DNA of 64,000 nucleotides, taken from assembly GCA_026770705.1 (NCBI GenBank), contig JANJGN010000026.1:33356001-33420000 (forward strand). Direction: 5' to 3'. Shown here piece after piece: positions 27,001 through 30,000 of the stretch (positions are counted from its first letter, which is position 1; each line of letters begins with the position of its first letter). The DNA comes from Isurus oxyrinchus (lineage: Eukaryota). The position numbers are program-made.

Positions 27001-30000
27001 CTAAGGTGCAGATTGTAATTTCATTGTCCCTCTGGAGACTGTCATTTAGAATAAATGAGGGATGCTTTGATACACAGCTTCGGTAATTCCTTGAGTTTCT
27101 GAGAGACGATGCACGGGCCAGCAAAAGGCCTCTTCTTCGCTATTTGCTATCCCATTCTCGCTGTTATTGGTGCGCCTGGTAAGTGATGAATCCCGAATAA
27201 ATGTTTGTGTTGATGTAAATCTCCAGATGTTTAGTCTCTTCTCTTCAGAGTCTGCATTTAAGGGAGTTCAATCGAATTATATCGGTGCTCTGTATGATAT
27301 TATACTGTGTTATGTTGGATTATAGCTCTACTTGCGCTTGCATTATGGGGCATTGCAAAATATTATTCAATTTATTATGCTGCATATTTAGAGAAATGCT
27401 TTTTATTAGAATGCTGACATATGAATTGTAATGTTTGCCTTTGCATAGACATTAACCTGTTATATTGTTGAACATCGTGTTTTATTCTAATCCAGTCAAA
27501 TGCAATCTAGCATTTTGAGTATTGAGCGAGATCATTGCATATCATCATGTACTGACATGCATTTTCGTGCGCTGGTCCTATCAATATATCAGAAAATTAA
27601 TTGTTACAGTGCAATTATTCAATTAAATGAATTGTAATATAAAATACTTTCAGTGATAATACACATATACAATGCAACCTCTAGAAGTATGTAAAATTTA
27701 CAGTATGATTTCCCACTGGGCAGTCCTAATTGTTAATCTGGCTTTGGGATTTAATTATGGAATCGTTTGAAAAAGGGGAGTGAGGTCTCAAGATTTTTAA
27801 TGTGCTTTGCTTTGTGCTGGTAGGTCTTATAAATTTTGGATAGTTATATTTTTAATCAGCAGCGGGATGTGGGTGTCCGTGACAAGATCAACATTTATTG
27901 CTCTTCACTAGTTTCCACTTCAGAAAGTGGGGTTGCATTTGTTTCTTCAGCCGATCCTGTATGTATGGCACGGATGCTTCACAGGAACTTCACCTGATTA
28001 ATTTCATACTGAACGGCGCAAGGGGATATTTGACCAAAGGGTACTCACAGAGTTTACTTCTAAGGAACGTTCTAAAGAGGAAAGAAGAGCTGGAGCCGTA
28101 GAGGGAGGGGTTTTCAGAGATCAGAGCATCGGCAGCTAAACGCTGAACCTCTACAAATGAAAAGATTAATGCCAGGGGCACGAAACTGCAGAATTGGAAG
28201 CATATGATGGATCTCAGACAGTTGCAGTGTGTTACAGGAATTGAAGAAGGCGAGATAACAGAAGAAATTAAAAATAGACGGACGAGGTTATTAAAACAGA
28301 GACGTTGCCATTCAGGGGGGCATTGGGCTGATGGATGGGCGGAACTTTTGCCGTTTTATGCCAATAAGGGCAGCGGTAGCATATGTTTCAGATAATCTTA
28401 AATTGGATAGTTAGGCCTGAAGATTGCCTCAGTGTACAGAGAGTGAAGTTTGGAGTGAGAATGAGAGGATTGCCTCATGTTTTGACTAATAGTTAATCCA
28501 GCATTGGATGCCAGACAATTACCAAAGACTTGACAATAGTCGCAGCCTGGAGGTGGCAAAATGACGGGTAAGGAGGGTTTAATTAACAGATTCGATGAGG
28601 CAGTATCTCATGTTTGGAATCCGCTTGGTAACATCTCTACCCCTTTATCCCTCACAGCCAACTTGCTAGCGATCGTAATTCTATCTCGAGGGTGCTGCGG
28701 GCTCTCCCGCTGCACCACCTACTACCTGGTGGCAATCGCGGTGAGCGATTTCCTGGTCATCATCACCGCCGGCATCCTCAACCGGATCGGCCGCATCTAC
28801 TTTCAGGACAGTGTCCTCTCCACCACTCCCGCATGCGCACTCAGCAATGTGCTAGTCTTTACCATCCGGGATGTGTCAGTCTGGCTGACGGTCGCCTTCA
28901 CCATTGACCGTTTTGTGGCCATCTGCTGTCAGAGCCTGAAGACCAGATATTGCACTGAGAAAACTGCGTTGCTGGTTATAGGACTGGTCAGCGCCCTGAG
29001 CTGCGTGAGGAATGCCCCTTTCTACTTCAGCTACCAGCCTTTGTACATCCTGGACGGAGTGTCCTGTTTCTGTGCCATTAAGCCTGCCTTTTATATTCTT
29101 ACCGCCTGGCACGCCTTCGATTGGCTGGACCACATCTTAACCCCCTTTCTCCCATTCCTCCTCATTCTGCTTCTCAATGCCCTGATCGTAAGGCACATTC
29201 TAATGGCCAGCAGAGCCCGCAGGAGGCTCCGGGGCACCGAGAGTCACGGAGACCAGGAAATCATCAATCGCAAGCGGTCCATTGTCCTGCTTTTTGCCAT
29301 CTCGCTCAGCTTCCTCCTCCTGTGGGCCATCTTTGTTGGACATTTCCTCTATGTACGGATTACAGGCGAGGGTTATCTCACCAGCCTGAATTTCAATGAT
29401 CCAGATTACATCCTTCAGGAGACCACCAACATGCTCCAGTTGTTCAGTTCCTGCAACAATGTCTTCATCTATGCCGTGACCCAGAACAAGTTCCGAGAAC
29501 AGCTGAAGAAAGTCATGATGTGTCCCTTCACCACGGTCACTGTTTGCTTTAAATGGTAAAAACAGGTTAAAACACCTTTGCGTTAATTCACTTCCATCAG
29601 AGTAGTTCAGTGTGTCACTCTGTCCAGCATAAAAAAGTCCTAGGCTCTGTCTCTCGGACTTGAGAGATGTAAGGCCCGTATTCCAATGGCGACAGTCCCC
29701 CTGTCTGAAGGGATTTTGAAATATCACAGTTGCTGCCTGCCTAGATGAGATAAAAGGCTGATTCTTCCTTTCTCTTTCTTTCTTTCCTTCTTTCTTCCTT
29801 TCTCAGTCATACCGCTAAGTCTCTAACCCCTCGAAGTTTACACCGAATGCAGAAAGGAAAGCATTTGAACAAATGGGAAATTCTTCCTTTCTCAGTGAAT
29901 CGTGATCTGAAATTTGTTGCCTGAAAGGGAGCTGGGCGCACAGTGGATTAAAATTTTCAAATGTTCATTAATAAATACTGGAACAGGACGACATTTAGAA

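What the first reader, a model, noticed from the sequence alone, without database searches (positions are those of the whole stretch)
27109..29559. Intact two-exon GPR139-like GPCR embedded among TCR V segments
Seen: exon 1 (27109-27178) splices in frame to exon 2 (28658-29559), giving a 323-aa 7TM receptor with no lesions while most neighbouring V segments are decayed. The ORF-track N-terminus (MTGKEG...) is intron read-through. Inference: the gene is under selection and may be co-amplified with the NAR-TCR unit. It would be deleted, or opened for transcription, when upstream V segments rearrange, so T-cell clones could differ in receptor content, reminiscent of trypsinogen genes in TRB and olfactory receptor genes near TRA.
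Basis: partly seen in the sequence, partly recalled or inferred. Interest (0 to 1): 0.65.

Follow-up and report, generated by a model that had tools for sequence, protein, structure and literature searches.

The report
Intact orphan receptor gene among shark TCR segments
This is an intact two-exon gene for an orphan cell-surface receptor, one of a very large family in sharks and rays, that sits among mostly broken T-cell-receptor gene segments; it looks like an ordinary family member there as a bystander.

Summary
Exon 1 (27109-27178) and exon 2 (28658-29559) join in frame across a GT-AG intron. This gives the family's modal length of 323 aa.

The exon-1 peptide matches the N-terminus of 77 of 120 homologues. 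It supplies the missing part of TM1.

Of 14 conventional V-like loci in the window, 11 carry lesions. So does the one NAR-type V.

The gene is not a GPR139 orthologue. It belongs to a large, divergent class-A GPCR family found in sharks and rays, which pipelines auto-name "probable GPR139". The solved GPR139 structure is only a marginal best sequence hit and ranks 35th by fold. Only 3 of 6 GPR139 pocket residues are kept.

Family members lie on many contigs per species and next to unrelated genes.

The window also holds an old, dead paralogue. The intact copy has a basking-shark sister and evolves about three times slower than that dead copy. This points to purifying selection, although two otherwise invariant residues are changed.

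Co-amplification with the NAR-TCR unit and conserved linkage to TRA/D could not be shown. Loss of the gene in T cells follows from the layout, but nothing shows it matters. The case is ordinary and of low to moderate interest.

The parts
27109..27178 (+). Exon 1. Contains the ATG and encodes 23 residues plus the first base of the split Ala codon. It provides the short N-terminus and the first two-thirds of TM1.
   Evidence: Searches give the sequence, the in-frame TGA at 27100 and the donor GTAAGT. Searches show that 77 of 120 homologues start with the same 24-aa N-terminus.
27179..28657 (+). Intron of 1479 nt, GT...AG. Its last ~190 nt (28470-28657) are still alignable with the paralogue at a neutral-like 65% identity.
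28658..29559 (+). Exon 2. Encodes 299 residues plus the TAA stop, from the end of TM1 (the Asn of the 7tm_1 start) through TM7 and helix 8.
   Evidence: The AF2 model has pLDDT 83.6 and pTM 0.82.
29947..29975 (+). First poly(A)-signal-like hexamers downstream of the stop: ATTAAA at 29947 and AATAAA at 29970. Use as the 3' end is inferred only.
37553..38602 (-). Dead paralogue, consisting of an exon-2 homologue plus ~190 nt of intron. The acceptor AG is changed to AT (38416-38415). A 7-nt deletion lies between 37871 and 37870 and shifts the frame. No exon 1 was detected.
   Evidence: Long terminal branch of 0.25 against 0.029 for its sister. Relative rate 36:6.
38608..38970 (-). V-set segment truncated at its 3' end. 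It has lost the second Cys and the RSS, and it abuts the truncated dead GPCR copy.
24204..24569 (+). Nearest V-like remnant upstream of exon 1. Frameshifted and carrying stops.
1758..2151 (+). Open V segment with a perfect RSS at 2113 (heptamer CACAGTG, 23-nt spacer, nonamer ACAAAAACC). It lies upstream of the GPCR on the same strand, so deletional joining of this V to elements further downstream would remove the GPCR.
40689..41000 (+). Open V exon with an RSS at 40961 (CACACTG, 24-nt spacer, ACAAAAACC), downstream of the GPCR.
56484..56720 (+). NAR-type V exon with a frameshifting deletion in FR3. The frame changes between 56672 and 56680.
   Evidence: All 23 PDB hits are VNAR or new-antigen-receptor domains.
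59750..60143 (+). Second copy of the 1758-type V (97.5% amino-acid identity) with a perfect 23-RSS at 60105, 3 kb downstream of the NAR-type V. That it is the supporting delta V of a NAR-TCR unit is inferred.
57992..64000 (+). Direct repeat of window 1-6014 at 98.75% identity, with a period of 57,991 bp. Both copies are cut by the window edges.

Best explanation
The locus is a structurally intact, probably functional member of a large class-A (rhodopsin-like) GPCR family. All named members seen here come from sharks and rays, and annotation pipelines call them 'probable GPR139'.

Shown:
- The gene has two coding exons. Exon 1 supplies a 7-residue extracellular tip and most of TM1. Exon 2 supplies the rest of the seven-helix bundle, a beta-hairpin ECL2 and helix 8.
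- The gene lies inside a TRA/D-type V array. A second, older family copy there is dead.
- The intact copy has a close sister in the basking shark. Each window copy belongs to a paralogue lineage older than the split between lamniform and carcharhiniform sharks.

Inferred:
- It works as an ordinary G-protein-coupled receptor. A peptide or small-molecule ligand would bind in the TM3/5/6/7 pocket under ECL2, and signalling would run through the DRF and NVFIY motifs.
- The ligand is unlikely to match GPR139's aromatic amino acids, because the residue aligned to R244 (6x51) is Phe and the one aligned to H187 is Asp.
- It is transcribed from its own promoter just upstream of 27109.
- Its position among V segments is a by-product of a duplication-prone region. 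It does not indicate a functional tie to T cells.
- T cells that delete from the 1758-type V to downstream D/J elements would lose it on an excision circle. That loss would be incidental.
For: Gene model:
- Exact splice geometry and frame.
- Exon-1 peptide identical at 23 of 23 residues to the N-terminus of Carcharodon P0004. 77 of 120 homologues have this N-terminus, and 323 aa is the modal length (27 of 120).

Family:
- 7tm_1 at 70.5 bits.
- 1333 hits at E <= 1e-3. Of the best 120, 116 are named, and all of those come from elasmobranchs.
- 101 clusters at 50% identity reach E <= 1e-30.
- 69 of 71 columns that are at least 95% conserved are kept.
- In the tree, the intact copy is sister to Cetorhinus P0019 (SH-aLRT 99; 91% identity over 258 columns; terminal branches 0.055 and 0.05). 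The dead copy is sister to Cetorhinus P0005 (SH-aLRT 96).

Constraint:
- dN/dS is 0.295 (0.20-0.40) against the paralogue.
- Lineage-specific changes are 10 in 258 columns for the intact copy and 36 in 284 for the dead copy (chi-square 21.4 against its sister).

Fold:
- The model has pLDDT 83.6 and a beta-hairpin ECL2.
- The best structural matches are peptide receptors: ghrelin, motilin, NTSR1, NMUR2, galanin and CCK1.

Bystander status:
- Family hits lie on many contigs per species: 10 contig lengths for 17 Hemiscyllium hits, and 8 for 13 Heptranchias hits.
- 0 of 20 long models and 0 of the 120 best hits carry a V-set domain.
Against: - Two residues that are invariant in 68 of 68 full-length homologues are changed. 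One is W to C, two residues before the ECL2 disulfide Cys. The other is T to I at the end of TM5.
- The basking-shark sister model (P0019, 261 aa) shares the W to C change. It also lacks exon 1 and 37 residues covering ECL2-TM5, so that orthologue may be decaying. The window copy has changed exactly as much as it has (10:10).
- No expression data were available.
- No DNA from orthologues was available, so there is no branch-specific dN/dS.
- The rate comparison with the dead copy assumes that both sister pairs split at the same time.
- Conserved linkage to TRA/D in other species could not be examined, so a selected association is not excluded.
Confidence: 0.6

Rival explanations
1. The gene is an unconstrained relic. 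Its reading frame simply has not been hit yet, and it is no longer a working receptor.
For: - W to C and T to I at positions invariant in 68 of 68 homologues.
- An Arg to Cys change in the otherwise near-constant 'RGRCGLS' motif, read directly.
- The closest relative (Cetorhinus P0019) is modelled without TM5 and without exon 1, and shares the W to C change.
- Both sisters have the same number of unique changes, 10:10.
- The neighbouring family copy and most V segments are dead.
Against: - Both splice sites, the start codon and all 323 codons are intact.
- 69 of 71 conserved columns are kept.
- The per-column change rate is about a third of the dead copy's: 3.9% against 12.7%.
- The terminal branch of 0.055 is below the tree's median of 0.11.
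- The gap in P0019 may be an annotation artefact.
Confidence: 0.3
2. The gene is kept within the TRA/D locus and amplified with the NAR-TCR unit because V(D)J rearrangement deletes it or opens it for transcription. T-cell clones would then differ in receptor content in a way that matters.
For: - Layout only. An open V with a perfect 23-RSS lies 25 kb upstream on the same strand, and open Vs lie downstream. Some deletional joins would therefore remove the gene and others would keep it.
- A 98.75% direct repeat with a 58-kb period frames the region.
- Both window copies have sisters on the same 65.16-Mb Cetorhinus contig.
Against: - The repeat does not include the gene within the window.
- The two in-window copies are old paralogues (dS 0.61) and do not derive from recent amplification.
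- The family is dispersed over many contigs and sits next to unrelated genes.
- No expression or T-cell evidence exists.
- The position of D/J/C relative to the window is unknown.
- Four literature searches on this topic found no report of a GPCR in a shark TCR locus.
Confidence: 0.04
3. The gene is a single-exon gene that starts at the ATG at 28561 (MTGKEG...), and the upstream exon is spurious.
For: - The frame is open for 40 codons upstream of the acceptor, in both the intact and the dead copy.
- Some database models begin with such read-through.
- The read-through contains an N-x-S site, read directly.
Against: - It would leave TM1 with too few hydrophobic residues (mean hydropathy 0.46 against 2.12 for exon 1).
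- 77 of 120 homologues carry the exon-1-type N-terminus.
- The upstream stretch diverges like third codon positions, 65% against 69% identity.
- The donor and acceptor are both of consensus quality.
Confidence: 0.03

Closest known systems
Elasmobranch RefSeq models named 'probable/putative G-protein coupled receptor 139' (for example Cetorhinus maximus P0019 and P0003, Carcharodon carcharias P0004)
   Same: They share the 24-aa exon-1 N-terminus, the modal length of 323 aa and 74-83% identity over exon 2 (91% to P0019 outside its gap). The window protein nests inside this family with SH-aLRT 99.
   Different: The window protein was not itself in the database. It carries W to C (shared with P0019) and T to I (its own) at otherwise invariant positions. 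Its position among TCR V segments could not be compared, because the tools give no genomic context for these proteins.
Vertebrate GPR139 / GPR142 (human GPR139 structures 7vug, 9m42)
   Same: Class-A fold. GPR139 is the best sequence match among solved structures. The alignment starts at the first residue of exon 2. F3x33, W6x48, N7x38, D-R at the TM3 end and an N-x-x-x-Y TM7 motif without Pro are all shared.
   Different: - The match is only 35.7 bits (E 6.5e-8), barely above the AT2 receptor at 33.9 bits.
- GPR139 ranks 35th of the 50 fold matches shown.
- The residues aligned to R244, H187 and E108 are F, D and V. The mapping was done by hand.
- GPR139 is described as highly conserved across vertebrates (PMC12208981, abstract and passages), whereas this family has 101 divergent clusters.
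GPR210A/B, orphan clades placed beside GPR139/GPR142 in coelacanth, gar and some fishes (PMC6504862, passages seen)
   Same: Non-mammalian orphan class-A receptors grouped near GPR139/142.
   Different: That paper held no match to 'elephant shark' or 'Callorhinchus'.
Non-antigen-receptor genes embedded in TCR loci: trypsinogen genes in TRB and olfactory-receptor genes near TRA in mammals (recalled, not checked in any call)
   Same: An unrelated multigene-family member lies between or beside V segments. It can therefore be lost from T-cell DNA when upstream V segments join by deletion.
   Different: The family and the lineage both differ. Here one copy is intact and one is dead, and conservation of the arrangement is unknown.

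Membership tests
Class-A (rhodopsin-like) GPCR, Pfam 7tm_1 | Match to the 7tm_1 profile above the gathering score, over its full length | tested here: met
   70.5 bits against a cut-off of 30.5. Profile positions 2-260 of 260 are matched within exon-2 residues 1-271.
Class-A (rhodopsin-like) GPCR, Pfam 7tm_1 | Seven transmembrane helices | tested here: met
The AF2 model of the exon-2 peptide shows the end of TM1, then TM2-TM7 and helix 8. Exon-1 residues 8-23 are hydrophobic, with mean hydropathy 2.12.
Class-A (rhodopsin-like) GPCR, Pfam 7tm_1 | Signature motifs: D-R-Y at the TM3 end, C-W-x-P in TM6, N-P-x-x-Y in TM7, and the TM3-ECL2 cysteine pair | tested here: inconclusive
   All are present in variant form: DRF, W-A-I (no Pro), N-V-F-I-Y (no Pro), and both cysteines. 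These variants match the family consensus, and partly match GPR139. The motif names are recalled.
Elasmobranch 'probable GPR139' expansion | Conserved 24-aa N-terminus on a separate exon and a length of about 323 aa | tested here: met
   77 of 120 homologues have this N-terminus, and 27 of 120 are exactly 323 aa long. The exon-1 peptide matches P0004 at 23 of 23 residues.
Elasmobranch 'probable GPR139' expansion | Placement inside the family tree with support | tested here: met
   Sister to Cetorhinus P0019 with SH-aLRT 99, inside a 5-row lamniform clade with SH-aLRT 97. The tree had 65 rows, was built with the quick method and LG+G4, and was rooted on 4 batoid rows.
Elasmobranch 'probable GPR139' expansion | Retention of family-invariant residues | tested here: inconclusive
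   69 of 71 columns that are at least 95% conserved are kept. The two misses (W to C, T to I) are at positions invariant in 68 of 68 homologues.
GPR139/GPR142 orthology group | Clear best similarity to GPR139 over other class-A receptors | tested here: not met
   By sequence, 35.7 bits against 33.9 for the AT2 receptor. By fold, rank 35 of the 50 matches shown, behind the ghrelin, motilin, NTSR1, NMUR2, galanin, CCK1 and CXCR2 receptors.
GPR139/GPR142 orthology group | Agonist-pocket residues F109, H187, W241, N271, R244 and E108 (PMC5430874) | tested here: not met
   3 of 6 are kept (F, W, N). The residues aligned to H187, R244 and E108 are D, F and V. The mapping was done by hand on the alignment, using a chain offset of 212 that fits all 6 letters.
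GPR139/GPR142 orthology group | Intron at the same place in TM1 | not testable with these tools
   The alignment to GPR139 begins at the first residue of exon 2. The gene structure of GPR139 is only recalled, and a search found no paper that states it.
TCR alpha/delta V array with a NAR-TCR unit (genomic setting) | V-set segments of TCR alpha/delta type carrying a 23-RSS | tested here: met
   V-set Pfam hits for 7 ORFs. Perfect 23-RSS at 2113 and 60105. In a profile search with 4 window V segments, the hits with specific names among the best 120 are TCR-alpha V regions or TRAV14/DV4; the rest have generic labels.
TCR alpha/delta V array with a NAR-TCR unit (genomic setting) | A NAR-type V upstream of a conventional V | tested here: met
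   For 56484-56672, all 23 PDB hits are VNAR domains. A conventional V with a 23-RSS lies 3 kb downstream. The NAR-type V is frameshifted. D, J and C elements were not looked for.

The most novel reading that the evidence does not exclude
A sub-cluster of this elasmobranch receptor family may be conserved inside the TRA/D V array in lamniform sharks, and possibly more widely. If so, V(D)J deletion would make T-cell clones genetically mosaic for one or more GPCR genes, with some consequence for the cells. Behind this sits a broader possibility. The family has 101 clusters at 50% identity below E = 1e-30, and no paper describing it turned up in the searches. It may be an undescribed, fast-evolving sensory or peptide-receptor repertoire of sharks and rays.
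Probability: 0.05. Interest if true: 0.6.

Novelty: new member of a known kind. Interest (0 to 1): 0.25.

Why it matters
For genome annotation, the result settles the gene model. The gene has two exons and encodes 323 aa, and the ORF-track start is intron read-through. It also flags a second copy as a pseudogene.

For naming, 'GPR139' on these shark proteins is a pipeline label. It does not reflect orthology and should not be used to infer ligand or function.

For comparative immunology, this is one more case of an unrelated gene lying inside an antigen-receptor V array. It would matter only if the arrangement proves to be conserved and the gene is expressed in lymphocytes.

The larger open question is what this very large shark-and-ray receptor family does. 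I found nothing in print on that.

Tried and rejected
- Linkage test through contig lengths. I searched with a window V segment (1 hit, unnamed, on a 1.2-kb contig) and with a profile of 4 window V segments. The shark V proteins found lie only on small draft contigs. They could not be matched to the large contigs that hold the GPCR homologues.
- Names and taxa for the distant representatives. The listing of cluster members answered that the shared database is switched off. I did not repeat the query, so the family's range outside elasmobranchs is unknown.
- The Atlas search added only the labels 'Chordata' and 'probable GPR139'.
- The PDB sequence search with the 1758-type V was dominated by multi-domain scFv chains. 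I did not use it to type the V segment.
- Literature searches: (GPR139 + shark: 4 papers, none relevant). They found no description of the shark expansion, no report of a GPCR in a shark TCR locus, and no statement of the GPR139 gene structure. Only the search listings were read, apart from the papers named in the full report.
- Table S1 of PMC12227049 gives scaffold coordinates of TRA/D in four species. It is a supplement and was closed, but it could allow the linkage test.
- Rfam found no RNA family in the window.
- I considered a RAG-mediated origin for the junction between the truncated V and the truncated GPCR. The V has lost about 25 nt of coding end, and about 40 nt of unalignable filler lies between the two. 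A plain deletion or rearrangement therefore fits as well.
- Exon 1 and exon 2 were handled separately.
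Full report
**What is at the coordinates**

- The window reads ATG at 27109, preceded by an in-frame TGA at 27100.
- Exon 1 is 70 nt and ends at 27178. It is followed by the donor GTAAGT.
- The intron is 1479 nt. It ends in a pyrimidine tract and CAG at 28655-28657.
- Exon 2 is 902 nt and ends in TAA at 29557-29559.
- The sum is 972 nt, or 323 codons plus the stop. The split codon G|CC encodes Ala.
- The stop-to-stop frame 28540-29559 (339 codons) is the longest in the window. 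Next come a second copy of the same gene at 280 codons and the gene's own antisense shadow at 200 codons.
- Following the operators' note, I translated and searched the two exons separately (P0001, 23 aa; P0002, 299 aa). I never assembled, searched or folded the joined model.

**Is the two-exon model right?**

- Exon 2 alone matches Pfam 7tm_1 over the whole profile, at 70.5 bits against a cut-off of 30.5.
- It finds 1333 database proteins at E <= 1e-3. Of the best 120, 116 are named, and all of those come from sharks or rays.
- Of those 120, 77 begin with a 24-residue N-terminus of the exon-1 type. The Carcharodon protein P0004 is identical to the exon-1 peptide at 23 of 23 residues and has Ala at the split codon. 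The commonest length is exactly 323 aa (27 of 120).
- Exon-1 residues 8-23 are strongly hydrophobic (mean 2.12) and complete TM1. The read-through N-terminus 'MTGKEG...' is not hydrophobic (0.46).
- The 188 nt upstream of exon 2 are 65% identical to the paralogue. That is about the same as third codon positions (69%), so this stretch behaves as neutral intron sequence.

**What family is it?**

The name 'GPR139-like' comes from automatic annotation.
- Among solved structures, human GPR139 is the best sequence match, but only at 35.7 bits (E 6.5e-8). The AT2 receptor follows at 33.9 bits.
- An AlphaFold model of the exon-2 peptide was built on 57 aligned relatives (pLDDT 83.6, pTM 0.82). It shows a class-A bundle with a beta-hairpin second extracellular loop.
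- Its best structural matches are peptide receptors: ghrelin, motilin, neurotensin 1, neuromedin U 2, galanin and CCK1. GPR139 ranks 35th of the 50 matches shown.
- PMC5430874 (abstract and passages) reports six GPR139 pocket residues. Three are kept (F3x33, W6x48, N7x38). The residues aligned to R244, H187 and E108 are Phe, Asp and Val. I mapped these by hand on the alignment, using a chain offset that fits all six letters.
- GPR139 is described as highly conserved across vertebrates and as activated by L-Trp and L-Phe (PMC12208981, passages). This family is large and divergent instead. At 50% identity clustering, 101 clusters reach E <= 1e-30 and 337 reach E <= 1e-10.
- Among the 116 named hits, 13 carry other automatic names: galanin receptor 2a-like, GPR15-like, GPR142, sex peptide receptor-like and FMRFamide receptor-like.
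- I therefore file it as a member of the elasmobranch expansion and not as a GPR139 orthologue.
- Whether the family exists outside elasmobranchs is unknown, because the look-up of names for distant representatives could not be made.
- PMC6504862 (passages) places further non-mammalian orphan clades ('GPR210A/B') next to GPR139/142. I could not test a link to those.

**The second copy**

- tblastn finds exactly one more copy, on the minus strand at 38412-37553, in two reading frames.
- Aligned with the intact gene, it shows three defects: the acceptor AG changed to AT, a 7-nt deletion that shifts the frame after TM5, and no detectable exon 1.
- Similarity starts about 190 nt upstream of exon 2 and stops at the stop codon.
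- Directly upstream lies a V segment (38608-38970) that has lost its own 3' end and RSS. One rearrangement may have truncated both.
- The two copies are old paralogues, with dS 0.61, dN 0.18 and dN/dS 0.295 (bootstrap 95% interval 0.20-0.40) over 296 of 299 codons.

**Phylogeny and constraint**

- I built a 65-row tree from 63 of the 120 best hits, chosen by hand to cover the species, plus the two window copies. It used the quick method with LG+G4 and was rooted on four batoid rows.
- The intact copy is sister to Cetorhinus maximus P0019 (SH-aLRT 99; 91% identity over 258 columns; terminal branches 0.055 and 0.05). The pair sits inside a lamniform-only clade of five rows.
- The dead copy is sister to Cetorhinus P0005 (SH-aLRT 96), with a terminal branch of 0.25 against 0.029.
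- A relative-rate count gives 10 against 10 unique changes for the intact copy and its sister (258 columns, outgroup P0003). For the dead copy and its sister it gives 36 against 6 (284 columns, chi-square 21.4).
- Per column, the intact copy has changed about a third as much as the dead one. That fits purifying selection, provided both sister pairs split at the same time.

Evidence against full function:
- The window protein differs at two of 71 family columns that are at least 95% conserved. Both are invariant in 68 of 68 full-length homologues. One is W to C, two residues before the ECL2 disulfide cysteine. The other is T to I at the end of TM5.
- The Cetorhinus sister shares the W to C change. 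It is modelled without exon 1 and without 37 residues spanning ECL2-TM5. This could be real decay or an annotation artefact.
- I put the chance of a working gene at about 0.6 and of an unconstrained relic at about 0.3.

**The surroundings**

- The window holds 14 conventional V-like loci.
- Three are open and carry an RSS. Two of them, 1758-2120 and its 97.5% copy 59750-60112, each have a perfect CACAGTG-23-ACAAAAACC. The third is 40689-40958, with a 24-nt spacer.
- The other 11 carry stops, frameshifts or a lost 3' end.
- A profile of four window V segments retrieves V-set proteins. The hits with specific names are TCR-alpha V regions or TRAV14/DV4, and the rest carry generic labels.
- At 56484-56720 lies a NAR-type V. 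All 23 of its PDB hits are VNAR domains. It has a frameshifting deletion in FR3.
- A 1758-type V lies 3 kb downstream of it. This looks like the NAR-TCR arrangement described for shark TCR delta (PMC12227049, passages and section 6).
- Window 1-6014 repeats at 57992-64000 with 98.75% identity. Both copies are cut by the window edges.

- Co-amplification is not shown. The recent repeat does not reach the gene inside the window, and the two in-window copies are ancient.
- Deletion in T cells is a simple consequence of the layout. If D/J/C lie downstream, joining of the 1758-type V by deletion removes the gene, while joining of the Vs at 40.7 kb or 59.8 kb keeps it. The position of D/J/C is not known from the window, and nothing indicates that loss or retention matters.
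- The family is dispersed. Among the best 120 hits, 17 Hemiscyllium proteins lie on 10 different contig lengths and 13 Heptranchias proteins on 8.
- Close relatives also cluster. All 6 Cetorhinus hits are on one 65.16-Mb contig, and 10 of 11 Rhincodon hits are on one 11.7-Mb contig.
- None of the 120 best hits carries a V-set domain in the precomputed Pfam column.
- None of 20 long representative models is fused to a V domain. Their partners are hemopexin, TRIM, a sodium channel, integrin alpha, a uromodulin domain, hexokinase and trypsin.
- Whether the lamniform cluster lies in TRA/D could not be tested. The tools give no eukaryotic genomic context, V proteins from sharks sit only on small draft contigs, and the table of TRA/D scaffold coordinates in PMC12227049 is a closed supplement.
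- PMC12227049 holds no match to 'GPR', 'G protein' or 'G-protein'.
- Seven searches found no paper on this shark expansion or on a GPCR in a shark TCR locus. 'The Sensory Shark' (PMC11979771, passages) reports no GPCR among the top olfactory-enriched genes and does not mention this family.

**Verdict**

- The gene is a new member of a known, already-annotated kind, sitting as a probable bystander in a TCR V array.
- Interest is low to moderate. The most interesting open thread is the function of the large family itself, together with whether a sub-cluster is conserved inside TRA/D.

Noticed in passing
window 1-6014 and 57992-64000: A direct repeat at 98.75% identity with a period of 57,991 bp. 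Both copies are cut by the window edges, so the true unit could be the whole 58 kb.
   Followed up: partly
window 56484-56720 (+): A NAR-type V exon. All 23 of its PDB hits are VNAR domains. A frameshifting deletion in FR3 makes this NAR-TCR V look dead, while the conventional V 3 kb downstream is open with a perfect 23-RSS.
   Followed up: partly
window 38602-38650 (-): A junction between a V segment that has lost its last ~25 coding nt and its RSS, and a GPCR copy that has lost exon 1 and most of its intron. About 40 nt of unalignable sequence lies between them. A single rearrangement may have killed both.
   Followed up: partly
window 28540-28657 (+) and 38532-38415 (-): The frame upstream of the exon-2 acceptor is open for about 40 codons in both paralogues, and a 19-nt block at about 28588-28606 is nearly identical between them. 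Overall identity of the stretch (65%) matches third codon positions, so I treated it as neutral intron.
   Followed up: partly
window 42105 and 45305 (+): Two related dead V segments differ by an 11-nt indel in the RSS spacer. One reads as a 12-spacer and the other as a 23-spacer.
   Followed up: no
window 25441-26424 (+), 17409-18012 (-), 47366-48075 (+), 51769-52062 (-): Long ORFs that look like LINE ORF2 tails. This rests on a recalled motif, and Pfam gave no hit for 25855-26424. One of them lies just upstream of exon 1.
   Followed up: no
window 48249-48788; 4828-5305 and 62820-63291: Dinucleotide-repeat tracts that show up as low-complexity ORFs (His/Thr-rich and Leu/Ser-rich) in the ORF list.
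   Followed up: no
protein P0236 (representative): An unnamed gene model that joins a fragment of this GPCR family to a full trypsin domain. This is curious because trypsinogen genes sit in the TRB locus of tetrapods (recalled). Species and locus are unknown.
   Followed up: no
window 29200-29802 (-): A 200-codon open frame antisense to exon 2. It has no homology of its own and I take it to be a shadow of the coding strand.
   Followed up: no
   Followed up: no
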